DNA from: Lytechinus variegatus
Taxonomy: Eukaryota
Assembly (NCBI RefSeq): GCF_018143015.1
Contig: NC_054741.1
Coordinates: forward strand, 72,036,687 to 72,100,686
Direction: 5' to 3'
DNA length: 64,000 bases
Positions 8,263-57,839 of this stretch are shown here, piece by piece. The notes under the pieces are model-generated. The model was not told where the DNA came from, searched no databases, and saw nothing but the letters and a program-made list of their open reading frames with translations. The translations under genes and the position numbers were made by a program. The first letter of the stretch is position 1. Every line of letters starts with the position of its first letter.

Positions 8263-8854
8263 AAAGGAGAATGAAACCATTGGAACAAGATAGCTTGTGT
8301 AAAAACAGAAAAATCAAAGAAACAGATCAACGAAAGTTTGAGAAAAATCGGACAAATAATGAGAAAGTTATGAGCATTTGAATATTGCGATTTCTAATGC
8401 TATAGAGATAGCAAATTGGCAATGCGACAAAGATGTGTGATGTCACTTGTGAACAACTCTCCCCATTACTTTAGTATATATTTCACTTGAATTGCCTCTT
8501 TTATCACATCTATCCATAGATCATGTGTTCTTTCTACATGAGGGCATGTAATACATATTTTTTTAGGAATACATCATGGATAAAGAGTTTGTATCATCAT
8601 AAGAAAAAGCAAAAAGAGACATTTTTTAGGGTATTTTATAGTCCACCAAAGGGAAAGTTGTTCATCAGTGACATCACACATCCTTGTCGCATTGCCAATG
8701 GGAGGACCTCCATAGCATTAGTGATTGCAATATTCAAATGCTCATAACTTTCTCATTATTTGTCAGATTTTTCTCAAACTTTCTTTATTCTTATTCTTTG
8801 ATTTTTCTGTTTCTACACAAGCCTATTTGTTCCAAAGGTTTCATTCCCCTTTAA
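8263..8854. mobile_element. Foldback MITE family 2, copy 1 (~590 bp, ~190-bp inverted arms), in an intron of the coiled-coil gene
   Basis: The arm 8263-8460 is the reverse complement of 8640-8854 (gacatcacacatccttgtcgcattgccaa...). ORF-track entry 8523-8747 is an artefact. Confidence 0.75.
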
Positions 8855-14911: not shown

Positions 14912-15025
14912 ATGTATTTCTGGAATAGGACTGATGTCCTTTACTTTGACTTGGGTTGGGGCTGGAGCTGCACTTGGTGTTGAGGTATCTTTACCTGGTA
15001 CTAAAGACTCCTCAATACTGGCCAT
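14912..15025 (-). CDS. Exon MASIEESLVPGKDTSTPSAAPAPTQVKVKDISPIPEIH; it could be the first coding exon of a separate coiled-coil gene or an internal exon
   Basis: The ATG at 15025 is preceded by a tttttgatag acceptor-like motif. Donor CAT|GTGAGT. Confidence 0.55.
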
Positions 15026-16742
15026 CTATCAAAAATAATAATCATAAAAGTATTACTTCCATAGAATATATACTGAGCAGAGACTGCTGAAGTATATATT
15101 ATACAATGCTATATAAGAGCTCTTGATATGCTTGTTAAACATTATTCATCCTATTCATTTGATCATAAACTAAGAATGGGAAATTTTTATTTTTACTATT
15201 AAACGATAATATTTCTGACTGAATACCAAACCATGGTATATCCATATGCTTTACATCAATATTCATATCAAAGTACTCTATAACTGAAAAACACATGATA
15301 AACAATGGATCATGTATTGTATGACAACTGAACACACTGATTTTTTTTTCAATTTGTAGGGTTAAGGAAATGGTGATTAACATATATCTATTTTTTATTA
15401 TAGGAAAAAAGCTAGGTTTCAAATTATACAGATTACAAAATTATAAAGATTGTAATGAGCAGGCATATTGAATGCCTAATTGGAGGATGAATATGAATAT
15501 AAATGTGTGACAGGATATAAACTTGGCCTATGCCCTCACATCGGGCTATTGTGTAACCCGACCATTTCATAAAAGGGCCTCCTAAATATCTTTAAAAGGT
15601 CCAATCCAGTTAATACCAGACACTTCGTGAAAGTTATAAGCCAATAGGGTTGGATAAACTGAACCCGAACTTTCAGAAATTTAAGGGATCCTTTTCTCAA
15701 ATGGTCGGTTACAAGATTGCCCGACTGGGTGCAATACCCTGATGTTATGGCACAGGCCTAAATTTGGATAGGGGCTTGGGCACAGGAGCATGAAAGAGCA
15801 AGGAAAATGAGCTAATGTAACATTATATGATTATGAAAATGTAATGAGATAACAATATTGAGTGCATTACTGCTGGATAAATAATATACTTTGAGACAGG
15901 ATATAAACTTGGCTGGGGGGCAGGAATTGAAAATAGCAAGGAAAATAAACCAAATTTATATCATACAAGCTTGCAAATGAATTAGGTGTGAAAGACTATG
16001 CAGTATAATGATTTACTGATTTACGCATGGATATACTGTAACAGGCATCGAAAGATAACAAACAGTCAAACACACAATATAAAACTCGCTGACCTTTCTG
16101 AAACAAAGTAAAAGAAAAATGAGTACATGTACATGGGAGCCACAAAGTCAAACTTCAACAACTATTGGGAAAAGTCTCTTTTTTTCTAAAAACTACCTTT
16201 CTAAACTGATTTTGATAAACATGTCTTCCTGTAAAAGTAGTACTATGAACAAGTACATGCAGAATAAGACTGTTATCTTTAATACTGATGAATGAAATTG
16301 ACAGTGATTCCCTAAAAATATCCTGTAGCAAGGAGTCTTGCTTTTCATTTTCTTTTACAAAATCTGAAAACACAGTGCTCATAAATATTTTTATATTTGA
16401 TATGCAACTACATGCTGTGGTAACCCTGGGTTGTATTTTAAAGCTAAAATGGCAACTATTCCAATAATGTTTGTTATACATGCACAGTGTAATTTAGGCA
16501 TGGTGTTGAAAGGTAAAATTCAGGAATTAATTGTTGGTAGGGTTAGAAACTGGGAGGGGGCATCTGATAAGCATGATGATAAAATGCATTAATGGAATGA
16601 CATGTAATCTACATTCAATCAGTAAATATGATGCAAATAAATTAACGATTAAAAATATAAATAATTTTGGGGGAAATATGTGCAGAAAATTATTGCAGTT
16701 ATATTCATACAATTGTATGCAAAATACAAAAAAAACACATTA

Positions 16743-17147
16743 GGGCCCAAATTCAAAAGCTGGTTTTGAAAACCAACAGTTGAACTCATGGTTTATGCAG
16801 ATTCCTGTATAAATTACACTTTATTAACATGTGTATCAAAAAAATTTCCCATGCGGATGCTCACTTTTGACACAGAGCACCAAATTGACGTCTGTTGCCA
16901 TGTTGCATAAGTACACTATTTTATTCAGGAGTCCACTGTTTTGAATTAATGAGTCTACTCTTTAAACAGTGGACTCAAATAAAATAGCATACTTACAAAT
17001 GGCAACAGCTGTCAATTTGGCGCAATGTGTCAAAAGCGTGCATTAGCATTGGATATTTTTCGATATATGCGGTTAATTAGAGGTAATTTATACAGAAAAT
17101 CTGCATAAACCATGGGTTTTAAAAACCACCTTTGTGAATTCGGGCCA
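16743..17147. mobile_element. Palindromic MITE (~405 bp) with ~70-bp TIRs (ggcccaaattcaaaagctggttttgaaaaccaa...catggtttatgcagatt)
   Basis: Both ends are reverse complements of each other, and the interior is palindromic as well (caggagtccactgttt / aaacagtggactc). Confidence 0.7.
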
Positions 17148-17769
17148 AAGACTCTTTAAAGAAAACATCAATTAATAACCTGCACATAATAGTGAAGTAG
17201 AAAAAGTAATTCATAGTTATTTCATTGGTTGATAAATTAACATTTATAAAAGCTGCAAAGGAACAATTAAACATGTGTTAGTATTTGGTAGGAATGGTAG
17301 GAATTGTGCATGAGCATCATTATTCAGAATGTCATGTCAATTTTTACAAATCACACGAACTGTATACATGTATGCAACATTAGCAGATTCACTAAGGGAA
17401 GGACCTAGGGGCCCCAGTCCAAATCCCCCGGAAGATGTTCTGCCAATGTATTTTACAACAAGCAACAAGCAATGAAGATCATTTGAATACATAATGCAAT
17501 GTATTAAAGGTTAGTAAATGTAAATGAAAGGGTATTATATAATACACTATTATTATATACTATTATTAAAGGCACCTATCGCAAGAACAGCCACAAAGCA
17601 AACCCAGCCTGCATTTTTATTGAAGGAGGAAGGAGTGAAGAATGAAGCACCATGATATATGCACAGAAATTAATCATGGATAATTTATTTTTCAGAATAT
17701 AATGTATTATATAAGTGGTTGGATCATCATGAATATTGATTATTGATTGATACATATTCACGAGCATAC

Positions 17770-17856
17770 CTCCTTTTCAAGTTTGGACAATTTTTCATTG
17801 TCGATACGTGATGAGCAAAGAACTTCAGAAGACCCGTAAGAAGACCCCAAGCTTAT
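17770..17856 (-). CDS. Candidate small exon ISLGSSYGSSEVLCSSRIDNEKLSKLEKE, linking the RA exons to the coiled-coil exons
   Basis: A clean 87-nt open frame with donor GAG|GTATGC and a weaker acceptor ctaacag. Phase 0 on both sides is compatible with its neighbours. Confidence 0.4.
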
Positions 17857-19305
17857 CTGTTAGAATCAAACCATCATAGTATTTAATAACCAACTCATCC
17901 CTACCACCATATTACATCATTCAACTCTAAAGGGATCAGATATCAAATAATACTTATTATCTGTGCATGTCGAAAAAGCTTAAGTATGTCTGTTGATAAG
18001 CATATTTTACGAACTAATAACAATATAAAGGGAACATGAAGTTGGTTCACAAGGGGTCAAATGTAATTTCAAGTCCTGTGTAATTTTGATTTAAATCCCA
18101 AAGAGGGCAAGATCTCATCAATGTGGTTGTGTGTTACCGTATATGTACGTATTTTTAAATAGGACCTTGAGCGAACTGCACTCATTGTGAAACGGCTCTC
18201 AGCCACTGATCAATCTAGTGTCTCTTTTAGAAGACCAATACCTCAGCCACATTTGCTCTACGGCAGCCATACGGTGAGTCAAAAACGGCCGTTTTAACAT
18301 TTTGTTGTTGTTGCACCAGCTACATACACTAGCAAGTGGTTTGAATAAAAACAAATAAAATGGCTGTTTTCGATTCGCCATACGGCCGCCGTAGGGGAAA
18401 TGTGACTGCAGTATTAATGTCATTTAGCAATGAAAAAAAAACCTCAAATATTTATCTGATGACTGATCCCCTCTTGCACAAGAGAGCAAACATACAAACA
18501 AATATTTAAAAAAAAATCATCTCCCCAAAACACTCCTTTTTCACAGCAGAGGCAACACTCGGTCAATTCTCTTCAGCATTGTCCACATATACATGTTTGA
18601 GAAAAATACCATAAAAGTACTCATGACTTGCCTTAGGACGATAAAACTTCAACATACACATGCAGGGGAGAGATAATGGCTAAAAGGTCAATAAAGTTCT
18701 GAGACATTGATATGTACAAGAGATGTACCATAAATCAATCTTATTACACAGTGGAACAATAAATCACAACATCAACCTGTTATCTCACAAAAAAAACAAG
18801 ATTAATATGCAAAATGAGAGAACACTGCATCAAAAGAGAAAGAACATGTAGAAAATTAAACAAATATAACAGGGGCTTGAAAGAGTATGCAATCTTGCAA
18901 ATTAAAAACACAGCAGTTGGTAAAATAAAACTGCTTCAAAATGATAGTACAAGCCTGCCCTAAATCATATACTATTACATGTAGTATTCATATTGCATCT
19001 TCTCTAATCACTTTCAAACTTGAGAATAAAATCAGCTTCACAAGGAAGACAAATTAAATGATAGGATAAATGATAGTGTAGAATTGAAAGCCATTACTCT
19101 ATTGATCCTTGGCTGAACTTAATAAAACATATACATGCATGCGTACATTTTATAGTGCACGTCTTAAAATGATTAGACCTTGATAGGACTTGAAACAATT
19201 ACTGAAGACAATTTTTATTGCATTTATCAAAATGAAATCATATACAAAAGCAAAGATGCAAGGTCATTAGAACAGGCAAAGATGGCCACGAGGAAGAGTA
19301 CTTAC

Positions 19306-19490
19306 AGCGGACATCTTGGAGCTAGCTCTTGACGTGAGAGAGTCCTGACGCTTGACCTTACGATCGCCAGCATTGGCTTCTTCTTCTTCCTGGGTTGTCC
19401 AATGAAGATCCCTGTTGCTACGGTCACACAACACAAAGGCATGTGAGTCAAGCTGAAGAGGGAGTGCTTCATCGTCCACATCACATACAT
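19306..19490 (-). CDS. RA domain 2, second half plus linker (DVCDVDDEALPLQLDSHAFVLCDRSNRDLHWTTQEEEEANAGDRKVKRQDSLTSRASSKMSA)
   Basis: Acceptor ctccttag and donor GCT|GTAAGT. It matches the afadin RA2 tail (ILDDDECPLQIF...). Confidence 0.75.
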
Positions 19491-19864
19491 CTAAGGAGGC
19501 GAACCAACAATGTAAACACAATTTATCATCTTTATCATTTTGAGTCACCACATAACACTTTCTCTATGTTTAGCATGTGTAAGAGCCAGTTATGTTATAT
19601 TAGCCACTGCCAGGTCCCTCTTGATACAGGGTCAGTCACGCTACCTGGTGATCTTCTGTACTCTGTAATTTCATTTTTTTAATGTGAGCTCAATACAGTG
19701 ATATCAAATCTAATCAAATCAAGAAAACTGAAACAAGATTCTATACCTCCTGTTTTATTTTCATTATTATCTTTGGACAATCTCAAATCATTTTAATTAC
19801 TTGTTGATATCGTGGTTATTATATGTGATTGAAAACTAACTAAAAAAACATAAAAAATATATAC

Positions 19865-20024
19865 CTCCATCCTTGTCCACTTCAAGAAGACAAAAGAGAG
19901 TTGGGTCAACATTCTTCATGTCAAACTTCTTGAGAGCCAAGATGACCACTTCAATGGCTGGAGTGGACAGAGATATACTGACCAGCTTGCCCTTAGGTGG
20001 CTGACCAGGGATTCTAAGGACGGT
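19865..20024 (-). CDS. RA domain 2, first half (TVLRIPGQPPKGKLVSISLSTPAIEVVILALKKFDMKNVDPTLFCLLEVDKDG)
   Basis: Acceptor cttttcag and donor GGAG|GTATAT. It aligns with afadin RA2 (TLRIYADSLKPNIPYKTILLSTTDPADFAVAEALEKYGLEKENPKDYCIARV). Confidence 0.75.
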
Positions 20025-20629
20025 CTGAAAAGAGTGAAACATAAAATAGGATAATTACAATCACTCAAATTCAAAGAAAATATTTTCAATGTTAGCAAAC
20101 TACAACATGTTGCAAGCTCCGTAATATTACATGAATAATTGGTATCAATATTATGACTTAGCCACCTTGCCAAAATCAGAGCTGCGTCTTTCCCACAGGA
20201 AATCAGCAAGTGGCTTTTCATTAGCAATTTTCACATGTCCTCATAGACAAAAAAGGGAATGGAGGAAAGCGGTATCATATGACATACAGCTCCACTATAC
20301 GGAACAGACTTTTGACAACGGGCCTATATTGGTAAATACTCTTAATCATAGAGAGTTAAACATGCCACAACACTAATAAACACATTGTAAGCAAAATCAG
20401 AGTTGGTTATAATAGGTCAAGGAAAAATAGTTTTCACAATAATTACTTCAGATATTAATTCTCTATTATAAGCAATAAAGTGGCAAATCCATTAACTCTG
20501 CACATTCCTCATTAACTTTGATTGAAACATGAAAGGCATACATTACAACTGGCACTAATCAATACCAAAATTACTGTATCTTAATGAACTTTCATCATAA
20601 TAATGGTAATGTATGAGGTTAAAGCTCAC

Positions 20630-20748
20630 CTTTATAGCACCACCTTGTGCAGTCTTCTGCCTGAACTCAAACCTATTGCTAGAGTGATCACTCCAACCAT
20701 GCTGAATAACAAGTGGGCAATCCATAGGCACAAGCTCTACATCATTAC
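20630..20748 (-). CDS. RA domain 1, second half (GNDVELVPMDCPLVIQHGWSDHSSNRFEFRQKTAQGGAIK)
   Basis: Acceptor tgtgcag and donor AAG|GTGAGC. It matches the afadin RA1 tail (LDIDEKPLVVQLNWNKDDREGRFVLKNE). Confidence 0.75.
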
Positions 20749-21184
20749 CTGCACATGGGGACATAAGAAAGTTAGGAATTTATTATTATTATTATTCTAC
20801 TACTCAGGAATATAAGTATTACATTATTTTTTTTTAATTACAGCTGGGTATTGTGTGCACCTGAAGTTGAGCTAATTTGACACCTAGAACCAACTCGGCT
20901 GATCCTGATTCAAATTTGAGTCACATTTTTAAGCGTGTGATCTACAAGATCAACTTTGAACTTGATTGATAGGCATCTGATATGCAATATAAAAACCTGA
21001 TTTTATCAACAAGCCAATCGGTGTTGCTGGAATGTTCTGATCAGGCAAAGATTAGGAGGGGCAACCAAGTGAGTGTAAACAATGGATTGACCCATAAAAA
21101 CTTTGTCTGAGAATGTTATGGTGCCATTGACAATATTAGCATCTTTCGGGAAAAGCAAGTCAGCAGTGTCTGCATACACCTTAC

Positions 21185-21331
21185 CCTTGTCTTTGCCATG
21201 AATTGTAGCCTGTAGTACCCTGTAGAGTCTTGGGTCCTCAATCAGATCCAGCTGATTTAAACATAAATTGATTAAATCTTGAGTTGTTGATTCCTCTGTC
21301 AGTTTCACTACCAGAGTCTTTGATCCACTCC
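21185..21331 (-). CDS. Afadin/canoe-type Ras-association domain 1, first half (SGSKTLVVKLTEESTTQDLINLCLNQLDLIEDPRLYRVLQATIHGKDK)
   Basis: Acceptor ttatag and donor AAGG|GTAAGG. The ORF-track frame anchors it. It aligns with afadin RA1 (KCIRVSSTATTQDVIETLAEKF...YSLYEVHVSGE). Confidence 0.75.
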
Positions 21332-21676
21332 CTATAATTATTTAGATGAAAAAAATAGATGTATATTATCCTTTTTTCCAAAACAGTTTCATGATCTATG
21401 ATTATGTGAGTATAAATGAACATTGATGACAACTCAATGTTCATTAGAAATTAATAACATATATACACAGTGGTTCATTGAAAATCAATAACATACATCA
21501 TTGACATTCTATATGTTACATGTATCTATATATTTCAGCGTACTTTTTCTCAAAAGGAAGTAATAAATTATTATATTACATGACCTATATAGATACTTAT
21601 GCGCGATTGGTCAGCACACCGTCACGTGACCATCCTAACAAGGATGATTATCGGTATCTTTCCCAACATGACGTAA

Positions 21677-21760
21677 AATATGTCATACCTCGGAATATAA
21701 CGCTGTGATTACGTCATACCTCGTGATATAACGCCGTTATATTCCGAGGTATGACTTCAC
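21677..21760. repeat. Perfect 21-bp inverted repeat (gtcatacctcggaatataacg ... cgttatattccgaggtatgac) with a ~27-bp spacer. It lies within a motif-rich segment (CCAAT/gattgg, CACGTG, TGACGTAA, TTACGTCA) about 70 bp upstream of the Crypton-like ATG.
   Basis: Reverse-complement identity was checked by eye. The tcatacctcg core occurs three times. Confidence 0.7.
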
Positions 21761-21823
21761 ATGAGCACATTTGGGCTGCATTCGCGCAGCGCGAAATTGG
21801 AAGAAACAAATTTTTTTGTCAAA

Positions 21824-23149
21824 ATGACTGCTTCAGCGAGTCGATTCACATCGCTTGGTGAGGAACAATTGGAGGAAATAATTGATTAAAAAGATGCCCG
21901 TTCAACTAAAAGGGTTATTACTTTGGCGGAGAATGTTCTCAAAGCTTACTGTGAACACAAAGGATTGACAATTCAGGAAACAATCACATCAGCTGAGCTG
22001 AGCAATATTCTTCGATCGTTTTATGCGGAGGTGCGTAGATCAAACGGTGAACTGTACAGTAAACGTTCGATGATAACGCTATGATATGGACTGCAGAGAC
22101 ATTTCAGCAAACTTGGTTTCAACGTCGTGAATGACCCGGAATTCAAAGAAGCAAATGACATGTTTCATGCTGTTCTTGTAAAGCTGAAGAAGGCAGGAAA
22201 AGGATCTGTTGATCACAAGGAACCGATCACAAAAGATGATTTTTTGAAAATTAAATCATCTTCAGCAACTGATGTGAACACACCGAGAGGACTTCAAAAC
22301 AAAGTTTTCATGGACATTATGATGCAGCTGTGCAATCGTGGGAGAGAAAACTTGCAGAATTTTTCTCAGAAAGATTTTGTCGTTGTAAAGGATTCTACAA
22401 ATGAGAAATATGTCTACCTCGCCACTGATAAATTAACAAAAAATCACCGTGGAGAATCTCTGGATGACTCCCGCAGTCAACAAGGAAGGATGTATCAAAC
22501 TCATAAACCGGACTGTCCCATTGAAACTTTTGAACTGTATATTTCTCATCTAAATCCTGTATGTGATTTTTTTCAGCGTCCGAAGATAAGTGTAGAAAAA
22601 AATCAATAAGTGTGGTACTATAATTCCCCCGCAGGCAAGAATACTTTGGGTGATAAAATGAAGAAAATATCACTTGAAGCCAACACATCAAAGGTGTACA
22701 CAAATCACTGCTTACGCGCAACGTCAATCCACGTCCTGGATGCTGGTGGATTTGAAGCGAGACACATCATGCCCGTATCCGGACACAAGTCGGAAAGTAG
22801 TATCAAACACTACTCTTATGTTGATGAAGCTAAAAAAAGATGCATGAGCAGATGCCTTTCATCTATGGGTGATGGAACAGCTGGTCCATCGACACAGACG
22901 AGGCCTACAGCACTGTCCACTTCTCGCATTCATCCTAGTACTGCTACTACAAGTACTAGGCCTACTAGTCCAGGACCAGAACAAAATCCTACAGCTCTCG
23001 TGCCAGCAGCAAACACCGAAGATGCATCGTCACAAAGTTCACAGTCCCAGTCTTCACCTCAAATAAATGTTGTCTCGAACAAATTAGCCTTGGACAAGAA
23101 GCGGCAGTACAATTTCTACAATTGTACGGTCAATTTTTACAACTAACAT
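21824..23149 (+). pseudogene. Crypton-type tyrosine-recombinase gene (KIAA1958/ZMYM-like architecture: N-terminal EEQLEEIID..NTKR..F.AY..H domain plus a C-terminal YR catalytic domain with H-x-x-R and GHKS...KHYSY). It is one ~440-codon frame interrupted by three in-frame stops (TAA near 21887, TGA 22082, TAA 22607) with no frameshift.
   Basis: The ORF-track pieces 22127-22609 and 22610-23146 are in the same frame. The upstream segments MTASASRFTSLGEEQLEEIID*KDARSTKRVITLAENVLKAYCEHKGLTIQE...SKRSMITL*YGLQRHFSKLGF share that frame. The conserved motifs WYYNSPAGKNTLG, TNHCLRATSIHVLDAGG and IMPVSGHKSESSIKHYSYV match the tyrosine-recombinase box II pattern. Confidence 0.75.
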
Positions 23150-23585
23150 TTGACTATAGATCTATACAGCAGCATCTCGATAGAGACTAGACTTATTCAA
23201 CATTGTGTTTACATTTAAAGCGTTGGAATTCGGAAAAATATCATATCCCTCGACAAAAATATAACTCCCCTCAAGGATCTCAAATGTTATATTTCCCCTC
23301 TAGGCAGTCAATATCTGTATGATATTATAGAAGAATTTTTAACATGAAATTTACCTATTGAATATCAAACCTGTAATGATAATGCAATGTTAATTTGGAA
23401 TATCATGGAAGAAATCAAACATACCTAAACAGAGCTCACAATAAGACGAAACCAAGTGAACCATACCCAGTTCTTAGAAAGAGAAAACATCTAGATATAT
23501 AATCATTCTGCGATATGCTGAATATATATGTGTATTGCAGAAATCAAAGACAAATCATCATCAATGTAAGATACAAAATGGATAC

Positions 23586-23683
23586 CTGTTTGTCCGACAT
23601 CTGTCCATACATGAATAGTGTTGCTATCTCTTGGACTCTTCTTCCAATTTGATGGGGAGATCACTTCTTTCAGCTTGAAGAGT
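23586..23683 (-). CDS. Exon (G)LFKLKEVISPSNWKKSPRDSNTIHVWTDVGQT
   Basis: Acceptor ttgttcatgtag and donor ACAG|GTATCC. Phase continues from the acidic exon and into the RA1 exon. Confidence 0.55.
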
Positions 23684-24025
23684 CTACATGAACAAGAATC
23701 ATACACATTCAGAAATAGCCTTTTCTTTCAATAGTGAGATTTTGTCTCAAAAATTTGATGGATTAATAAAGCATCTCTTCAGTGAAGAAAAACAGGTAAA
23801 AGATACATTAAATTCAACAAACTTCATATCTATAGATTTTCTAAAATGGTTAAATGGTTGATAAAGGATTCTTCTCTTTCCTCTACTTCTTTTGTGTCCA
23901 TCATCTACCAGTAAACGCTGTTTACAGCATGTGTCTTTGGAATTGGAAGCTACTATAATAACGCAATGGTGAAAAATCTAGAGACTTTCATAACATATTG
24001 ACATGATGAAGATCTGTATTCTTAC

Positions 24026-25064
24026 CCTCCTTTTTTCTTCTTTTCTTCTTTTTCACTCCCAGAACTTCTACTGCTCTCACTTCTTGTTGGCTTCACATCT
24101 CCTCGCCTGGGACTTTCCTCCTCTACTGGTATCTCAGTCTCAACCTTCCTTCCCTTTGTGGAATCCTTTTTGGCCCCATGCTCAGTCCCATCTACTGAAA
24201 CATTTGCTGGGATCACTGCACCTAGAGAATCACTGGAAGTTGTTCTAGACAAGTCTTTCTTGTCAACAGAGGTTTTTCTTGTCACAGGTTCTTTGGAGGA
24301 GCCTTTCAAGATATTGTCCTTCTCAACAGAACCTTGTTTTAGCACCTTGGCACTATTGGCAGTATTTTTGGAAGCATTATTTTCAACAGATTTCACATTT
24401 CCTGAGATATTATTAACTATCATGGCTGATTTCAGAGCTTCATTGCTCTGTTTTTTATTCATAAACTTAACCTCTTCTTCATCATCATTGTCAAAGTCAA
24501 AGTCGCTAGCTTCTGATTCTTTGCTGTCCTTATCAGCAGTCTTACTAGAGGGTATATTTTTCTCTGCATCTTTACTTGCTTGGTTTGCAGCAAGTTTGGC
24601 TTTCCTTTCAGTTTCTTTGATTTCTGCCAGAAGTTCCACAACTTCTTCTTCTTCCTCATCATCTTCATCGTCCCAATCACCATCAGAATCATCTGTTTCA
24701 TCATCAGCAGCATCCATCGTTCCTGTGACCTTCTTCTTATCAATCTTCTTCTCTGTATCATCTTCATCATCCCAATCGCCATCGGAATCATCTGTTTCAT
24801 CATCAGAGGCGTCCATCTTTCCAGCAACCTTCTTATCAACCTTCTCCTCTGTATCCTCTTCATCATCCCAATCATCATCGTCATCCCATTCATCCTTCAT
24901 TCGCTTGTTCTCTTCTCTGCTGTCATTCTTCTCAGGACTAGATAGTAGACTGTCGCGTTCTTCTGGTGGTAAGAGCTGGATGTCTTCAGGGTCATCTGAT
25001 TGTAACACACTTACCGCTGCCATGTATTTCTGTTTCTCATAGCCGCTGGTATGGCTGATAACAC
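24026..25064 (-). CDS. Large exon (about 345 codons) encoding a Ser/Asp/Glu-rich acidic region with tandem ~31-aa repeats (KKVAGKMDASDDETDDSDGDWDDEDDTEKKIDKK, twice) and multiple WDD motifs; C-terminal part EKEEKKKKGG
   Basis: The ORF track has a 391-aa open frame. Acceptor tttttaccag at 25064 and donor GG|GTAAGA at 24026. The nucleotide-level repeat is visible at 24640-24900. The plus-strand Ser-rich ORF 24158-25042 is its antisense artefact. Confidence 0.7.
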
Positions 25065-25353
25065 CTGGTAAAAAAGAATATGTAGAATTGTGTTTTGATA
25101 ATTGGTAGGAAAGTTTTAATGACATTTTCTCCAGTGGTAATATGCTCCAATAGAAAATCTGCACATGAAGACAAATATGATAACTGATCTCAAACATGCA
25201 TCTTAGTCCTCATATTTGTTCTGAATAAAAACCCTATCACAAACTATAAACCTTAGCTCAAAGTATTCTATATTAATTGAAATTCGAATATATCCATTAA
25301 ACCAACAGAGTCCCTGTAGTAGCCACAAAGCACTGTTATCATTGGAAACTTAC

Positions 25354-25455
25354 TCAAAACATCATCTCTTGCAGTAGTAGAAGATGGGTTGGTCAATTCG
25401 TAGAGAGTAGATAAGATTTTCTCTCTTTCTATTGAGGAATCTATATCCATTTCAT
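25354..25455 (-). CDS. Exon (D)EMDIDSSIEREKILSTLYELTNPSSTTARDDVL upstream of the acidic exon; the ATG of EMDID (aaATGG context) could be the initiator
   Basis: Acceptor ctccttacag and donor GTAAGT. Phase is compatible with the next exon. Confidence 0.5.
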
Positions 25456-25849
25456 CTGTAAGGAGACACAATAAGAAATCAAATTATTATCCATATAAAA
25501 TATACAGAGTAGCTAAAAAAGTTAAAAATATCATATTATCGCCATCCCAGGAATGTAAGAGATATGGACAAATTAAATGAAATATTGAATACTACATGTA
25601 TCATCAGGAAATCTTTAGCATCACTTTACAATTACATGTATTTTACAAAACCTAGCCAAAGGATTGTCCCTTATCCAAGCTATATACATGTATGCAGAGT
25701 GCAGGTGTGCTATAATTGGAACATGAGCAACATCTTAAAGCAATAAAGATTATCATTCATTAGGTCTAAGTTCAACAAATTAAAGTTAATGAACATAGAT
25801 CCAAACTTACTAAAACTAAAATCAATGTTTTTATTTCATTTTCCTTATA

Positions 25850-26700
25850 TTATTGTAACGATCCCGCAAAAAGGATCGTGACGTAAACAATAAGCCCTGC
25901 GCATAACTATTGTTAACTCATTATTCATAGCTGTCACGAGAACTCATTGAACCGTGAGTATTATGTCTTTCGGTTATTATTAGAAATTACTTGAGATCTC
26001 ATATTCCAAATCAGAAAATTATTAATGTATTAGCTAGTTTGTAAATGAGTCCTGAGTTTCTAATGAAGAAATGTTAGGAGATAAGTTGATTTGCATTTTT
26101 TATGATCGAATTGGTGTAGATATAGATTGAATAATTCATCGCTGGCTGTGTTTATGAACGTACATAATTCGCATAAGAGCACAGCCGGCGTATTTGCATA
26201 AGTGCGGATGAGCGTTTGGATGCACAGTACGTCCGATCGCAGCGCTGGCCGACTTTGATAGATTTTTGACTAATTCATATCTTTTTGAGTATTGATATGA
26301 ATGGTTCTGTATATATTTCAGTGCAAAAATATATATCCTTTTGGAAACGTATCGACTTATTGAATGTTTTGTAGTAATAAACGAGAAATTGTAAATAAAC
26401 TGGCTTCGATAAAGCACAGTTCGAGTTCTCTGTACATTATACGCTGCGCGTAGACGTGTGTGTGCTATCCAAACCTGCTCGGCGCACCGTTTTCACCTAC
26501 GTCCGCAATTTGTCCATATAAATAAGATACGTTTAGTCGCCGGGGCTGGCACAAACAACGGAAATCTGACTGCGGAAGGCTTGCCACGGGGAAGACTTGG
26601 AAAACTTGGAAAGGTAAACAGACACAGGAAACAAGCCTATTGCCAAGGCATATAGACGCTGGAAACCTCGATATGAATTGAATTAAGTCCCTATATTGAC
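25850..26700. promoter_or_regulatory. Isolated CpG-rich island in a CpG-depleted region (a TGACGTAA CRE, a cataaataag TATA-like motif and several CGCG clusters). It is a candidate promoter, possibly bidirectional, for the minus-strand acidic/RA gene and for a plus-strand transcript.
   Basis: The CpG density is visibly higher than in the flanks. Donor-like sites are present on both strands (aacc|gtgagt at 25951; gaaag|gtaaac at 26614). Confidence 0.35.
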
Positions 26701-27317
26701 CCGTATGTTTGAATATGAGAATTCCCAATAGAGGTCCAGATTAATAGAAGTATAGATCTTGCTATGATATAAATTTTCTTAATAATTATTTTGGGCGAGC
26801 GACCTGAAGTAAATAATCTAGGAATCAATCTCTTCGTATATATCGACGCCGGAATTAACAGACATGGAAACGAATGTCGAGACTGGGAAGCTGGAAATAG
26901 AAGTTTTTCTCTTAAGCTAGACGCCGGTTATAGATTTGGAAAATTCTTATACTTGGATGCCCAAAATAAGTTTAATAATTAGCCCTTATTTCTCTGATAA
27001 CAAAAACATCTTAGAGCTTATCTAAATATTAGACATTGTTTACCTGTAAGTGGCGAGTAAAGTACATGTATATATATATATTTATGCAATTTGAATAATA
27101 AAATGCACCATTTTTCTTTTTGCCATTGAAACTAAAATCTGAGTCACAAACCCCTGTGTCTTAATTTCTTTGCTGTGTACCCCCATAGTCATATATTTTG
27201 ATGAAACGACCCTTAATTGCAAATAAACTATAGCGAGCCGCTCTAGCATTTTCTTCCACTCTTTTATTATAATTATCTTGGAAACTGCATGCTCGGAAAA
27301 TATTGAGATAGACAAAA

Positions 27318-27429
27318 ATGGAAATAGAGAAAAGCTCAGGTGATCCACCACAGACTGAACACCATCCTGACGTAGAGGTCGGAATGGAAGAAATAAGCGA
27401 GAGCGGCGGCCGCTACATTATTATAAATG
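27318..27429 (+). CDS. Candidate plus-strand first coding exon MEIEKSSGDPPQTEHHPDVEVGMEEISESGGRYIIINVP
   Basis: Kozak-like acaaaaATGG and donor A|GTATGA. The downstream exons were not found. Confidence 0.2.
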
Positions 27430-27748
27430 TTCCAAGTATGATTCGATACTTAAAGCTCATTAAACAATGAGATTTCATTTGTTATCTGAATTGTTACTGA
27501 TTATGGAATTTGATACATAATGTGTATTAAACAGTTCTGAAAGTTTTTGAAGGACATAAAATCCTGGGAAGCCCCCAACAACATGTACAGGGATAAAAAT
27601 GACTACTGATGGGATTTATCAAAGGATATGGACTGTTATTCGATGGATCAATAAATTATATACTAGTATATATGAAAAAATTATAAGAAAGTTCAGTTGG
27701 GACAGGTGCCAGAAAGTAATTACTTTGGTTTAGACAAGAATTACTCAC

Positions 27749-27799
27749 CCAGCAAGGACATATCAATTTCCATTAGCTCTTTTCCAGAAATGTCATGAT
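27749..27799 (-). CDS. SAM domain 2 continuation (DHDISGKELMEIDMSLL); the remaining 3' exons were not resolved
   Basis: Acceptor ctttcag and donor CTGG|GTGAGT. It parallels the SAM1 exon structure (G.DIDG..L..L...DL). Confidence 0.6.
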
Positions 27800-27839
27800 C
27801 TGAAAGAAGTATATCAAATATATTTTAAATAATAGTCAT

Positions 27840-28075
27840 CAAATAGAGGATGATGTAGAGAAGGGGCAAATGAAGAAGGTGCATGTAGATGAAAGGACAG
27901 AGAGAGATGAGGTGAGAGAAGACACGATGTGGGAGAGAGTGAGGGTGAAGAAGAGAAATAAGGGCAGGAGACATAAGGGGAGGGGGGAGAGAGAAACACG
28001 CAGACTCACACACCCACACACACACAGAAGATAGACATGATGTGGGGAGAGGGTGAAGAGAAATAAGGTGAAAAT
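27840..28075. repeat. Purine-rich GA/GGA low-complexity block with (CA)n at about 28010-28024
   Basis: Read directly. It generates the spurious minus-strand ORFs 27814-28025. Confidence 0.6.
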
Positions 28076-29113
28076 GAAAGAAAATGTGGAATTAAATTTC
28101 CGGGGGATACACTTTGAAAAACATTAATCATCAGTATGTTTAACAATGTGAATACAAATTATAAGATTGAAAAGACACAAACAATGTTACTGGGATAACA
28201 AATGTCATTTATAGACCATCAGGGTGTCATAGAACAAAGAATGCGTACCTATTAGGGTGTATTCAAGGCTCCACATTAATTTTTTTGATCAAATCATCAA
28301 TTTCATATTGGTGGCCCACAAAGAAAATTTGGTGGCCTTGAAACAATAGAAAATATTACTATTTATCAACACTTTGGTAGCCAAACCGGGCCACCAAGTG
28401 TGGGCTTGTACAGAATTTCGGTGGTCCAACTCTCATATCTGGTTGCCCCGGGCCACTTCTTATGTTGAGCCCTGTGTATTTACATACATAAAAAAAAGAA
28501 ATCATTATGGATGTAATCAAATGTATATGTATAATGCACTGTCTACTTGCACTTACCTGCAATGTCACAATAAAAATTTGCCCCCCCCAAAATAAAAATG
28601 AGCGTGACTTTCGACTTCAAGATAACTCCACTTATCATTACATAAGTAATTCCAAAATTTTGATGTATTACTGAATGTTAACCCTTTTGTCTTTTCTTTA
28701 TATACATGTATATTGTAATCTGCAAGTTTTCAAAATGACTTTCAGCCTGATGGCAAAGCTGAATGAAATCCAATCTTTCACTATATAGTACATAACCATG
28801 GAAACCGGTTAAAACACTGCAGGAGAGGTAACTGTCCCATAAAGAGATAATCAAATTCAAAAATCTATATTTACAGGTTTCTTTAAAATGCATGCCATGA
28901 TTTGCTTTTTGTTTTGACTACAAGGTTTTGGCCATCCCGATTCCCTCCCACTTCTCACCAATAAATGAAAACACCTGGCAAGCATTCAGTTGTTTATATT
29001 TACATGTACATTGATTTGTCTGTAATTTTATCTTTATTAAACCCTACATTGTTTGTTGTTCAACAGTTTCATAACATCATTTGCAAACAGAGCTTTATTT
29101 TTTTTATACTCAC

Positions 29114-29248
29114 CAATGAAGTTTTGAGCTAGATGTCCCAGGTTTATAGAATCCAACCAATGTATGATATCTCTCTCTGTCCACTGAGAAACCCTTTTCT
29201 TGCTGAATGGAATGCTAGATTTTGGGATTGCATGTTCTGGGCTTGCTT
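29114..29248 (-). CDS. SAM domain 2, first part (EASPEHAIPKSSIPFSKKRVSQWTERDIIHWLDSINLGHLAQNFIG)
   Basis: Acceptor ccaatacag and donor ATTG|GTGAGT. The SAM signature W.E.D...WL.SI.L..Y...F is present. Phase matches the linker exon. Confidence 0.65.
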
Positions 29249-30037
29249 CTGTATTGGGATGAAAGAATTAAAAGGGAATGAAAACAAATGAAGTTTTACA
29301 GTAAAATCTAATAATAAATAGAAAGAAATGAAAGCAAAATGGTTTACTATTCAACTATAATCACAATATCTTTCATATTCTTATTGAACGTTTTAGAGAC
29401 AAACCAATAAATTTACAACTATACAACTTTTGATTGTTGGTTTGATCTGCAATTTTAGTCTCCTTGAGAAGAAGGAACAAAAATAAGAAATAACCAATTA
29501 AACTCCTTCAAAGAAAAGGACACAAAATGAGTCAATACATTATATTTTAATAAAAAGACAAATTATATTATACACTGTACATCATCAAAATTGATGAAGT
29601 ACATGTATATACAAATGTACATGTTCACTCTTTAATCTAATTATCAAAGTATGTTACATTACAGTATAAATATTATCGTTTTCACAAATTGTACAACTAC
29701 CACAGAATAAATGAAAAAGATCATAAATTGTACAACTACCCCAAATAGAGTTACCAATATCTTCTTTAAACAGAGCAGCTAAATCAGTTTTGAAACTACC
29801 CTGCATAGCATGTATTAATTACCATTATGTAACCAACTATGAGTTATGAGTCTCTAGCCAGAAGGTCCCATTGAGTAATGCACATGTACAAATATAATCC
29901 ATGCCTGGGTTTTGATTGACTGTTGAGCAATATCACTAGATACATGTATGTATAATTTAATTGACGGAAGGGAATGAATGTATGTATTTTATTAAATAGA
30001 GAAAGAATTTCAATAAGACGTGATTCTGATGACTCAC

Positions 30038-30386
30038 CAAATGATGAGTTTATCTTGCTCCCTCTATCATCAGAAGATTGTCCTCCATGTGATCCACTTC
30101 CTGACCCTGATGACTTCACAGAACTACCACTCAAGATAGAAGACAAATCACTATCTTGTCGTTTCCTTGGCTCCTTCTCTTTCATTTTCTTTTTTCCATC
30201 CTCCTTTCCCTCCTGTCTCTCTGTAATGTTGCCTTTGACCGATGATGTCATGGAGGGTTTTGAACCACTCTTGAGGGCAGAAAGGGAGGGTGAGGTGGGA
30301 AGGTCCGGGAAGAGATCTTCATCAGAGGTGTCTCCGAAATGTACTGAGCTGGATTCTTCTTCTTCTTCTCCATTGTGTTCAGCTTG
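30038..30386 (-). CDS. Ser/Glu/Lys-rich linker exon (QAEHNGEEEEESSSVHFGDTSDEDLFPDLPTSPSLSALKSGSKPSMTSSVKGNITERQEGKEDGKKKMKEKEPRKRQDSDLSSILSGSSVKSSGSGSGSHGGQSSDDRGSKINSSF)
   Basis: Acceptor ttttgtag immediately after an in-frame TAG, and donor TTTG|GTGAGT. The frame is anchored by ORF-track entry 29844-30251. The plus-strand ORF 29974-30573 is its antisense artefact. Confidence 0.65.
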
Positions 30387-37199: not shown

Positions 37200-38440
37200 G
37201 AATTAATCAATTAAGATAATACCAGTCTTCAAAAAAGGTGATAGTTCTTTAGCAAGTAACTACAGCCCTATTTCATTGCTTACAAACTTATCTAAAATTC
37301 TTGAAAAAATTGGTTCACATACGAACCATATAGATGTTTTTTTAAAAAGCACGACATCCTATTCGATACTCAATTTGGTTTTCGGGAAAAGAGTAGCACT
37401 TCCCAAGCAATACTTTTAGTTCAAACAGTTGCCAAAGCTTATGACAAGTCTTCAAATATGATTGGTTTGTTTTTAGATTTTTCAAAAGCATTTGATACAG
37501 TTGATCATAACATTCTTGTTTATAAACTTTCTCATTATGGAATTAGAGGGGAAACACTAAAGTGGTTCAAGAATTATCTAACCGGGCGTTCACAGTTCAT
37601 TTCACTTGATTGTAATATTTCTGAACGTAAACCTGTCCTTTGTGGAGTTCCACAGGGCAGCATTCTTGGCCCACTATTGTTCATTACTTACATAAATGCT
37701 ATTGATATGTCATCTACATTGCTTCAATTTATACTTTTCGCTGATGATTCTAATATATTTCTGTCGCACCCCGACCCAATTGCAATTGATGCAAATATTC
37801 AATGACGAACTAAAAATGTTTCGAATTGGATAACAGCTAACAAACTCTCTCTTAACCTCGAAAAAAACTAGCTACATGCTATTTAGCAACAAGATCACGA
37901 CTGTACCAAAAGATGAAATTTTAAATGATACTGTCATTCAAAGAGTGCGGTCTACTAAATTTTTGGGACTGATCATTGTAAAAATCATTGCTCGCAACAT
38001 TAGTGTCATTACAAAATTAAGTTCCTTCTTACCCCATTATATTTTGTTATCATTGTATCCAATGTTTATTTTACCTTACTTGAATTACGGAGTTGTTGCA
38101 TGCGGTAACGCAGCGAATTCTCAAATAGACTTTTTATTCTACAAAAAAGAGTAATTCGTATATTAATCATTAATCAAGGGCACATACAAATATTTTGTTT
38201 TTTAGAGTCTTGAAGGTTAAAGATTTATATTCTTTTCAACTCGGACAGTTAATGTACAAGTTTATCAATAAACAATTACCATTACCTTTTAATGATATGT
38301 TTGTAAAAAATGATACAATCCATAAGCACTTCACTCGCCAGGCGAGTTCCTTTCATTTACCTCTAAATAGAACATTGTTTACACAGAAGACATTTGTATT
38401 TACTGGTCCAAAATTATGGAATTCTTTTTCATAGGATATT
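37200..38440 (+). mobile_element. Decayed non-LTR retrotransposon reverse-transcriptase fragment of CR1/L2-like type. It is antisense within intron 1 of the SAM gene.
   Basis: RT motifs are present across shifted frames: PISLL..SKILEK, QFGFREKSSTSQA, FLDFSKAFDTVDHNILVYKL..YGIRGETLKWFKNYLTGRSQFISL, GVPQGSILGPLLFITYIN and FADD. There are multiple stops and frameshifts. ORF-track pieces 37458-37805, 37876-38154 and 38195-38434 fall inside it. Confidence 0.75.
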
Positions 38441-57103: not shown

Positions 57104-57839
57104 AACCCTATCTAGGCCGGGGGGCCTCGGAGGCCCCCTCAACAAATGGTGCGATATTTTCGCCGTGCGAAATTTTTTGACCGCGCTGCTCGCTGACTTT
57201 TTACTTTCAAGTCTTACGCAACTTTTGAGACCAATTTCGCTTCAGATGGGTACATGGTTACGAAATCATGCAACATTATGTAAGTGCATGTCAGACCGAA
57301 AATTGCTCAAAAACGTGATTTTATATACAAAGTCAATGCAAATTGTGTTTTCAACCAAAATTTATAATTGTATGATTATTTTTAGTTTTGCTAGTCTAAA
57401 TATATTCATTTTATGCTTTTTATGATCACAGAAGAGTCCCCAACAGATTTCATTGAAAAAAACAATGAAAAACAAAAGTAAAAAAACAAAGAAATACATA
57501 AGAAATTCCAAAAAACAATATAATACATAAGAAAATTATTTAATATCACGATTTTTGTCATGTACACTTGCTAAGGACACCACAAAGAGTTTCTATACCA
57601 AAAATTAGAACATTTGGAGCTTTATTTAGGGAGTTAGAGGAAAAAGTATGACTTCGCATACTAATTACGCATAAATTAGCATAATCGCTTCATAGCGATT
57701 CGCATGAAATAAACTACTGTACAATCTTGTAGATTATGTCCCAGGCAACCCGCGTGCCAATTTTCGGCGCGATCGCGCGGTCGACGGCCGAGATCTTAGG
57801 GGGGGGGGAACTCCAAAATACCCTGGCCTAGATAGGGTT
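57104..57839. mobile_element. TIR element (~735 bp) with 15-bp TIRs aaccctatctaggcc and CpG-rich subterminal inverted segments
   Basis: aaccctatctaggcc at 57104 pairs with ggcctagatagggtt at 57825. There is a G10 run at 57801. Confidence 0.65.

What the first reader, a model, noticed from the sequence alone, without database searches (positions are those of the whole stretch)
21824..23149. Crypton-like tyrosine-recombinase copy inactivated only by three nonsense codons
One ~440-codon frame carries the DUF3504-like N-terminal domain and the YR catalytic box (H-x-x-R, GHKS, KHYSY). It is broken by TAA, TGA and TAA with no indels. Each stop could arise from a single C->T transition (CAA->TAA, CGA->TGA). 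That suggests a young insertion decaying mainly by CpG/C deamination, or conceivably a read-through-dependent gene. The element sits in an intron or upstream region of the RA-domain gene, between 23586 and 21331.
Basis: partly seen in the sequence, partly recalled or inferred. Interest (0 to 1): 0.55.

Follow-up and report, generated by a model that had tools for sequence, protein, structure and literature searches.

The report
Dead Crypton transposon copy in intron
This is a decayed copy of a known kind of jumping gene (a Crypton, moved by a tyrosine recombinase) sitting backwards inside an intron of a sea-urchin gene; it is ordinary, and its three stop codons are about what random decay predicts.

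Summary
The sequence facts hold. Window 21824-23146 (+) is one 440-codon frame ending in TAA. It is interrupted only by TAA (21887), TGA (22082) and TAA (22607), and it has the two-domain tyrosine-recombinase fold with all catalytic residues.

It is the coding part of a ~1.76-kb CryptonA-type DNA transposon remnant (about 21558-23320). The remnant lies antisense in the 2254-bp intron 21332-23585, which splits the RA domain of a SAM+RA host gene.

A paralogue at an unrelated Lytechinus pictus locus is 91.6% identical, including both non-coding ends. That copy, one further DNA copy (L002) and the annotated L. pictus protein P0002 all carry CAA/CGA/CAA-type sense codons, so the three stops are private C>T changes.

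"Inactivated only by stops" and "mainly CpG deamination" are overstated:
- The copy has 40 private substitutions. Of these, 15 are C>T or G>A, 8 are at CpG and 21 are at A/T sites.
- Several substitutions are replacements at conserved residues.
- There is an in-frame 3-bp deletion.
- A 267-bp deletion removed half of a conserved 3'-terminal palindrome.

Neutral decay predicts about 1.5 stops, so three is unremarkable (P=0.19). Read-through is not supported. The only mildly new item is the conserved 3' palindrome of echinoid Cryptons.

The parts
21558..23320 (+). Whole remnant of the CryptonA-type element (about 1763 bp). The 5' boundary is uncertain by about 16 bp (21558-21574).
   Evidence: DNA similarity to the paralogous L. 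pictus copy L001 9740-11738 (91.6% identity) starts and stops here. The flanks are unrelated.
21558..21823 (+). 5' non-coding part of the element. It looks like a promoter and may hold recombinase-binding sites. It contains CACGTG and ACGTCA-type sites.
   Evidence: Conserved with L001 and, from 21728 onwards, with L002. Function is inferred only.
21682..21755 (.). Three copies of the 21-nt motif GTCATACCTCGGAATATAACG. Two are direct (21682, 21713) and one is inverted (21735-21755). The last two form a palindrome.
   Evidence: 3 matches in 64 kb, 0 expected by chance.
21824..23146 (+). Tyrosine-recombinase reading frame: 440 codons plus a terminal TAA, interrupted by three nonsense codons.
21887..21889 (+). 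Nonsense codon 1: TAA, from CAA (Gln22). Not at a CpG.
   Evidence: L001 and L002 have CAA. P0001 and P0002 have Q.
22082..22084 (+). Nonsense codon 2: TGA, from CGA (Arg87). A CpG transition.
   Evidence: R in all 13 aligned homologues. L001 and L002 have CGA.
22564..22565 (+). Site of a private in-frame 3-bp deletion.
   Evidence: L001 has GAG and L002 has GAT between these bases.
22607..22609 (+). Nonsense codon 3: TAA, from CAA (Gln262). Not at a CpG.
   Evidence: L001 and L002 have CAA. P0001-P0004 have Q.
23229..23230 (+). Breakpoint of a private 267-bp deletion in the 3' non-coding part. It removed the left arm and loop of the terminal palindrome.
   Evidence: L001 11381-11648 is absent from the window. 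L002 shares the start of that segment, so the segment is ancestral.
23230..23320 (+). Surviving right arm of the 3'-terminal palindrome. It ends in AGTCAATATCTGTAT at the element boundary.
   Evidence: 97% identical to L001 11648-11738 and 85% to Diadema L003 6423-6520. The full palindromes fold at -47 and -49 kcal/mol, z about -11.
23586..23683 (-). Host-gene exon encoding the first part of the RA domain (...NTIHVWTDVGQT). The donor GT is at 23585-23584. The 5' end of the exon is approximate.
21185..21331 (-). Next host-gene exon, continuing the RA domain (GSGSKTLVVKLTEESTTQDL...). The acceptor AG is at 21333-21332. The 3' end of the exon is approximate.
   Evidence: The Pfam RA hit (24.4 bits, cut-off 21) spans the junction.

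Best explanation
The region is a dead copy of a CryptonA-type DNA transposon. This kind of element is a single intronless gene for a tyrosine recombinase with short non-coding ends. It is thought to excise as a circle and reintegrate by site-specific recombination.

The copy inserted in antisense orientation into an intron of a sea-urchin SAM+RA-domain gene, most likely in Lytechinus. It makes up 78% of that intron. It has since decayed without selection.

Shown:
- The fold and the catalytic residues.
- Dispersed paralogues that share the non-coding ends.
- The three stops are private C>T changes, and the copy carries other private damage.

Inferred:
- The transposition mechanism, taken from the literature on Cryptons.
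- That decay is neutral. dN/dS on this lineage is 0.53, which fits partly active-phase and partly dead-phase history.
- That CpG methylation of the gene body accelerates part of the decay.
- That the copy can no longer move even if recombinase is supplied in trans, because half of its 3' palindrome is gone.
For: Protein:
- Pfam hits to DUF3504, QRICH1 and Phage_integrase.
- 278 homologues, the best from L. pictus at 88% identity.
- A profile match to XerA aligns H-x-x-R and H...Y.
- The AlphaFold model (pLDDT 70.6; the core is mostly above 80) matches Cre/Tre, XerA, IntI and QRICH1 over about 350 columns, E about 1e-6.
- R172/R174, E175, K206, H295, R298, H321 and Y330 are all retained.

Mobility:
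- L001, inside an HDAC-gene intron on L. pictus CM073228.1, is 91.6% identical over 21558-23320, and its flanks are unrelated.
- Further copies are P0002, L002 and Diadema L003. Each copy seen as DNA has different defects: L001 a 27-bp deletion removing H-x-x-R plus a 2-bp frameshift, L002 frameshifts, and L003 at least three frameshifts.
- Long-range dN/dS is 0.11 against L002 and 0.07 against L003, which shows the protein was under selection while the family was active.

Decay of this copy:
- 40 private substitutions: 12 synonymous, 20 replacement and 3 stops within the frame.
- 1.5 stops expected, P(3 or more) = 0.19.
- CpG transition rate 10% against 2% at non-CpG C/G sites, Fisher p = 0.002.

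Location: GT-AG intron 21332-23585 with the RA domain spanning it. Host exons lie on both sides.

Literature: CryptonA elements occur in sea urchin, encode only a tyrosine recombinase, and DUF3504 derives from them (PMC3212892; PMC13465315).
Against: - Only three other DNA copies could be reached, so copy number, the consensus sequence and the exact termini are not established.
- No unambiguous short direct repeat flanks the copy.
- No empty orthologous site was obtained.
- The species of the window was not determined directly.
- No Repbase comparison was possible.
- dN/dS of 0.53 with 35 changes does not by itself separate neutrality from weak constraint.
Confidence: 0.9

Rival explanations
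1. It is a functional gene expressed through stop-codon read-through or recoding of TAA/TGA.
For: The frame has no frameshift over 440 codons and keeps all catalytic residues. dN/dS on this lineage is 0.53, below 1.
Against: - All three stops are derived and private to this copy.
- TAA terminates the frame exactly at the conserved C-terminus of homologues.
- Host exons in the window are open under the standard code.
- Three stops fit neutral expectation.
- There are private replacements at conserved residues: R178Q, H168Q and S317P.
- The stop contexts (TAA-A, TGA-T, TAA-G) are not known read-through contexts. This last point is from my own knowledge.
Confidence: 0.02
2. It is a pseudogene of a domesticated Crypton-derived host gene (of the KCTD1, ZMYM, QRICH1 or KIAA1958 kind), not a transposon copy.
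For: NCBI names for some homologues read 'zinc finger MYM-type protein 2-like' or 'KIAA1958-like'. The fold also matches QRICH1, PDB 9hjt.
Against: - The catalytic residues are complete, whereas domesticated DUF3504 genes lack them (PMC3212892).
- There are no fused host domains and no introns.
- Similarity to the paralogue extends through both non-coding ends and then stops abruptly at unrelated loci.
- Every close copy seen as DNA is independently broken.
Confidence: 0.04
3. The stops come from enzymatic cytidine-deaminase (AID/APOBEC-like) editing of the element, not from ordinary mutation.
For: All three stops are C>T on the coding strand. Sea urchins encode AID/APOBEC-like deaminases; this is from my own knowledge and was not checked here.
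Against: Private changes show no strand bias (7 C>T against 8 G>A). They do not cluster, and 21 of 40 are at A/T sites. C>T at CAA or CGA is simply one of the common routes to a stop: 22 of 272 possible C>T changes in this frame make one.
Confidence: 0.03
4. The copy is dead as a coding sequence but can still be moved in trans, as a non-autonomous Crypton.
For: The 5' non-coding part, with its three 21-nt motifs, and the terminal 91 bp of the 3' end are well preserved. Non-autonomous Cryptons are known (PMC3212892).
Against: The 267-bp deletion removed the left arm of the 3' palindrome. That palindrome is conserved between Lytechinus and Diadema and is therefore probably needed in cis. No intact source of recombinase from this family was found; every close copy seen as DNA is defective.
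Confidence: 0.08

Closest known systems
CryptonA elements of animals (e.g. Crypton-1_SP of Strongylocentrotus purpuratus, CryptonA-1_OL of medaka; Kojima & Jurka 2011, PMC3212892)
   Same: - A single intronless gene for a tyrosine recombinase that matches DUF3504, with the complete catalytic set.
- No reverse transcriptase and no C-terminal GCR1_C domain.
- No terminal inverted or long direct repeats linking the two ends.
- Dispersed copies in an echinoderm genome.
   Different: - This copy is dead: three stops, missense damage and two deletions.
- Full-length relatives carry a 100-200-nt palindrome at or near the 3' end. The 2011 survey, which reported no terminal repeats in animal Cryptons, does not mention it.
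Domesticated DUF3504 genes (KCTD1, ZMYM2/3/4, QRICH1, KIAA1958)
   Same: Same fold and the same Pfam families (DUF3504, QRICH1). The structure search hits QRICH1 in PDB 9hjt.
   Different: Those genes are single-copy host genes with extra domains, and they have lost the catalytic residues. Here the residues are kept, there are no extra domains, the copies are dispersed and the frame is broken.
Cre, XerA and integron-integrase tyrosine recombinases
   Same: Two-domain fold and the R...K...H-x-x-R...H...Y active-site layout.
   Different: Only 10-13% sequence identity. The host is eukaryotic. The protein has an extra ~85-residue disordered tail followed by a short conserved C-terminal motif.
Glomhoppers (fungal CryptonA subfamily; PMC13465315)
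   Same: DUF3504-encoding elements that retain the catalytic residues. Many copies are truncated or decayed, and terminal repeats are poorly defined.
   Different: Different host kingdom. Many Glomhopper copies have introns. The relationship was not tested here.

Membership tests
Crypton (CryptonA group) DNA transposon | Encodes a tyrosine recombinase as its only protein (no reverse transcriptase, no second gene). | tested here: met
   One long frame in the 1.76-kb element. Pfam finds only DUF3504, QRICH1 and Phage_integrase.
Crypton (CryptonA group) DNA transposon | Catalytic residues of tyrosine recombinases are retained (R-H-R-Y tetrad plus K, E and H). | tested here: met
   R172/R174, E175, K206, H295, R298, H321 and Y330 are present and conserved in the aligned homologues. 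H-x-x-R and H...Y align to XerA. The fold matches Cre at E about 1e-6. The assignment of the first Arg rests on motif analogy (R-x-x-E).
Crypton (CryptonA group) DNA transposon | Protein matches DUF3504 and lacks the GCR1_C C-terminal domain of fungal Cryptons. | tested here: met
   DUF3504 scores 34.7 bits against a cut-off of 29.7. There is no GCR1_C hit.
Crypton (CryptonA group) DNA transposon | Dispersed copies at non-homologous loci with shared ends. | tested here: met
   L001 is 91.6% identical over 21558-23320 and has unrelated flanks. P0002, L002 and L003 are further copies. Total copy number is unknown.
Crypton (CryptonA group) DNA transposon | No terminal inverted or long terminal repeats. 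Short (4-6 bp) direct repeats at the ends in some groups. | tested here: inconclusive
   No repeat links the 5' and 3' ends. No clear short direct repeat was found, and the 5' boundary is uncertain by about 16 bp with only two flanked copies.
Crypton (CryptonA group) DNA transposon | Groups phylogenetically with curated CryptonA consensus sequences (Repbase). | not testable with these tools
   No Repbase or Dfam library is available. Support is indirect: an S. purpuratus homologue at 37% identity (P0106) and the literature (PMC3212892).
Domesticated DUF3504 host genes (KCTD1/ZMYM/QRICH1/KIAA1958) | Catalytic tetrad lost, fused host domains present, single conserved orthologue. | tested here: not met
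   The tetrad is kept. Pfam finds no zf-MYM, BTB or other host domains. Copies are dispersed and independently broken.
DIRS/Ngaro tyrosine-recombinase retrotransposons | Reverse transcriptase and RNase H genes, with split or inverted terminal repeats. | tested here: not met
   The element is only 1.76 kb with a single recombinase frame and no RT match.

The most novel reading that the evidence does not exclude
Echinoid CryptonA elements carry a conserved long palindrome (about 100-200 nt) at or near their 3' end, and it is the cis-acting recombination or recognition site of the element.

Evidence so far:
- It was found in all four full-length loci examined. These are the window's family in L. 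pictus (L001) and in Diadema (L003), a 53%-identical Diadema family (L004) and a 37%-identical S. purpuratus family (L005).
- The arm is 85% identical between Lytechinus and Diadema, although synonymous sites of the adjacent gene are saturated.
- No palindrome of that size occurs elsewhere in the 64-kb window.

Animal Cryptons were reported to have no terminal repeats, and their recombination sites are unknown. The window copy would then be a natural deletion mutant that lacks one arm.
Probability: 0.35. Interest if true: 0.45.

Novelty: new member of a known kind. Interest (0 to 1): 0.15.

Why it matters
The finding itself matters little. It is one more decaying transposon copy in an intron, and the number and type of its defects fit ordinary mutation.

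Two by-products have modest value:
- The copy gives a clean, polarised local mutation spectrum for a gene-body intron in a sea urchin. CpG transitions run about 5-fold faster than transitions at non-CpG C/G sites.
- Comparing copies exposes a conserved 3' palindrome and arrays of about 20-nt motifs in the 5' non-coding part. These are concrete candidates for Crypton recombination sites, which have never been defined experimentally in animals.

Tried and rejected
- **Other copies in the window.** None were found by tblastn, blastn or motif scans.
- **Host-gene orthologue, wanted to look for an empty site and to name the species.** The first protein search was swamped by low-complexity words and returned only an S. 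purpuratus model. The second returned nothing.
- **Exact look-ups of window ORFs.** Neither was on record, so no alleles or assemblies of this locus were obtained.
- **Metagenome scan with a 3'-arm pattern.** No matches.
- **PDB search with the reconstructed ancestral protein alone.** No hit. The alignment profile gave only a weak XerA hit, so I turned to structure prediction and fold search.
- **Rfam scan of 20500-24500.** Nothing found.
- **Deaminase hypermutation.** Rejected, because the private changes show no strand bias.
- **Alternative genetic code.** Rejected, because host exons and the element's own terminal TAA behave normally.
- **Horizontal transfer between Diadema and Lytechinus.** Not needed, because synonymous divergence is saturated (dS about 2.6).
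- **Short target-site repeats.** An 'ATATTA' core and a 'TATCTGTA' repeat in L001 were examined, but neither is consistent across copies.

Full report
**1. Observation**

The + strand frame starting at 21824 runs 440 codons to a TAA at 23144-23146. It has exactly three internal stops: TAA at 21887-21889 (codon 22), TGA at 22082-22084 (codon 87) and TAA at 22607-22609 (codon 262). The other five frames carry 18-35 stops.

Pfam finds three domains:
- a QRICH1-type N-terminal domain at residues 54-119 (30.4 bits, just under the 30.8 cut-off);
- DUF3504 at residues 151-283 (34.7 bits, cut-off 29.7);
- the C-terminal half of Phage_integrase at residues 267-334 (20.4 bits, below the cut-off).

One small correction: DUF3504 is central, not N-terminal.

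**2. What the protein is**

A database search gave 278 homologues. The best are two Lytechinus pictus proteins (P0001 at 88% identity, and P0002). Next come Diadema, other urchins, sea stars, oysters and corals. The window is therefore from a sea urchin, most likely Lytechinus. The species was not determined directly.

A profile of 14 homologues hits the archaeal recombinase XerA. That match aligns H-x-x-R and H...Y.

An AlphaFold model has mean pLDDT 70.6. The core is mostly above 80, and residues 352-434 are disordered. It matches Cre/Tre, XerA, the integron integrase and QRICH1 over about 350 columns at E about 1e-6.

R172/R174, E175, K206, H295, R298, H321 and Y330 are present in the window copy and conserved in the aligned homologues.

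**3. It is a mobile-element copy**

P0001 is encoded at an unrelated locus, inside an intron of a histone-deacetylase gene on L. pictus chromosome CM073228.1 (locus L001).

DNA similarity between the window and L001 is 91.6%. It covers window 21558-23320. This takes in 266 bp upstream of the ATG and 174 bp downstream of the stop, after which similarity ends abruptly on both sides.

Further copies are:
- P0002, available as protein only;
- L002, a 1.5-kb contig at 80% identity;
- L003, from Diadema setosum, at 73% DNA identity.

Every copy available as DNA is broken in its own way:
- L001 lacks 27 bp including H-x-x-R and has a 2-bp frameshift.
- L002 has frameshifts.
- L003 has at least three frameshifts.

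Over longer distances the protein was under strong purifying selection. dN/dS is 0.11 against L002 and 0.07 against L003. This is expected for a transposase during the active life of a family.

The architecture is a single intronless recombinase gene with no reverse transcriptase and no repeat linking the two ends. This matches the CryptonA group described in sea urchin and other animals, from which DUF3504 host genes derive (PMC3212892; PMC13465315).

**4. The three stops**

In a three-way DNA alignment, L001 and L002 both have C where the window has T at 21887, 22082 and 22607. The changes are CAA>TAA, CGA>TGA and CAA>TAA. P0002 also has Q, R and Q at those positions. The stops are therefore private and derived. 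Only the middle one is at a CpG.

**5. How the copy has decayed**

I polarised changes with L002 as outgroup over 1352 sites. The window lineage has 40 private substitutions (3.0%), against 19 for L001.

| Class of private change in the window copy | Count |
|---|---|
| C>T | 7 |
| G>A | 8 |
| C>T or G>A at a CpG (subset of the two rows above) | 8 |
| Changes at A/T sites | 21 |
| All private substitutions | 40 |

There is no strand bias between C>T and G>A.

Per site, CpG transitions are about 5-fold faster than transitions at non-CpG C/G sites (10% against 2%, Fisher p = 0.002). They are still a minority of all changes.

Within the frame there are 12 synonymous changes, 20 replacements and 3 nonsense changes. 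dN/dS is 0.53. With the observed spectrum, 1.5 stops are expected, and P(3 or more) is 0.19.

Some replacements hit conserved positions: R178Q, H168Q, S317P, E124A and F62I.

The copy also has private deletions:
- 3 bp after 22564, in frame;
- probably 3 bp near 22962;
- 267 bp of 3' non-coding sequence at 23229/23230.

So the frame is not inactivated only by nonsense codons, and decay is not mainly by deamination. The lack of a frameshift is unremarkable given so few indels.

CpG observed/expected is 0.92 in the element. It is 0.33 in the flanking intron and 0.47 in the whole window. This supports a relatively young insertion in a CpG-depleted, and presumably methylated, gene body.

**6. Location**

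On the minus strand, an exon ends at 23586 with donor GT at 23585-23584. The next exon starts at 21331 with acceptor AG at 21333-21332. The phases match (...VGQT|GSGSK...). A Pfam RA hit (24.4 bits, cut-off 21) spans the junction. A SAM domain is encoded upstream.

Further exons of the same gene lie on both sides. The element is antisense to the host gene and makes up 1763 of the 2254 intron bases.

**7. Rival readings**

- **Read-through or recoding.** The stops are derived. TAA ends the frame at the conserved C-terminus. Host exons use the standard code.
- **Pseudogene of a domesticated DUF3504 gene.** The catalytic residues are complete, there are no added domains, the non-coding ends are shared, and copies are dispersed and independently broken.
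- **Deaminase editing.** There is no strand bias or clustering.
- **A copy still mobilisable in trans.** This is unlikely, because half of the conserved 3' palindrome is lost.

**8. Seen along the way**

*3' palindrome.* Full-length relatives end in a long palindrome:
- L001 11546-11738 and L003 6311-6520 fold at -47 and -49 kcal/mol, with z about -11.
- The right arm ends exactly at the element boundary (AGTCAATATCTGTAT).
- The arm is 85% identical between Lytechinus and Diadema, although synonymous sites of the gene are saturated (pS 0.73). This argues for a cis-acting function.
- More distant families also have a palindrome 0.6-0.7 kb downstream of the gene. L004 has 98-nt arms and L005 (S. 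purpuratus) has 46-nt arms.
- No such palindrome exists elsewhere in the 64-kb window.
- Kojima and Jurka reported no terminal repeats in animal Cryptons (PMC3212892). A text search found no paper linking Cryptons with such a palindrome.

*5' motif arrays.* The 5' non-coding part holds three copies of a 21-nt motif, two direct and one inverted. The Diadema copy has an analogous array of a different motif of about 20 nt.

**9. Verdict**

This is an ordinary, decayed member of a known transposon class. The sequence facts are confirmed. It is partly overstated on "only" nonsense codons and "mainly" deamination. The read-through idea is unsupported.

Main limits: only three other DNA copies could be examined, no empty site was found, and no Repbase comparison was possible.

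Noticed in passing
window 23230-23320; L001 11546-11738; L003 6311-6520; L004 6007-6206; L005 5914-6009: Every full-length echinoid Crypton locus examined has a long palindrome (46-98-nt arms) downstream of the recombinase gene. In the window's family it ends exactly at the 3' boundary of the element. The arm is 85% identical between Lytechinus and Diadema although synonymous sites are saturated. The window copy keeps only the right arm.
   Followed up: partly
window 21682-21755; L003 3596-3976: The 5' non-coding part has three copies of a 21-nt motif (GTCATACCTCGGAATATAACG), two direct and one inverted, near CACGTG and ACGTCA-type sites. The Diadema relative has five copies of a different ~20-nt motif (TTTGCCGGTTCGTAATGC) in both orientations at the equivalent place. 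These could be promoter sites or recombinase-binding sites.
   Followed up: partly
window 23099-23143 (residues 426-440); alignment A1: After an ~85-residue disordered Ser/Thr/Pro-rich tail, the protein ends in a short motif (F-[YH]-x-C-x-V-x-[FI]-Y). The motif is conserved in homologues down to 37% identity and is modelled as a small beta-hairpin. Its function is unknown.
   Followed up: no
window 21558-23320; L001 10001-11341; L003 4001-7437; L004 4001-5341: All four of these Crypton copies lie antisense inside introns of host genes: the SAM+RA gene, a histone deacetylase gene, a cytochrome P450 gene and an unnamed gene. This may reflect annotation bias, because same-strand intronic copies are less likely to be called as genes.
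   Followed up: no
window 37458-38154 (+): Two adjacent open frames (MIGLFLDFSKAFDTVDHNIL... and following) look like a fragment of a non-LTR retrotransposon reverse transcriptase. This is judged by eye from the motif; no search was run.
   Followed up: no
window 57134-57694; 8295-8382; 60148-60232: These stretches are 73-76% identical to parts of the unrelated L. pictus locus L001 (6746-7270; about 17077-17165 and 17504-17591). They appear to be other dispersed repeat families shared between the two loci.
   Followed up: no
window 14912-30344 (-): The S. purpuratus protein model XP_011673032.1 (P0121) joins exons homologous to window 19919-14912 ahead of exons homologous to 30344-24043. That is the reverse of their order in the window. 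The model also ends by reading into the intron at 24022, so it looks chimeric or mis-assembled.
   Followed up: no
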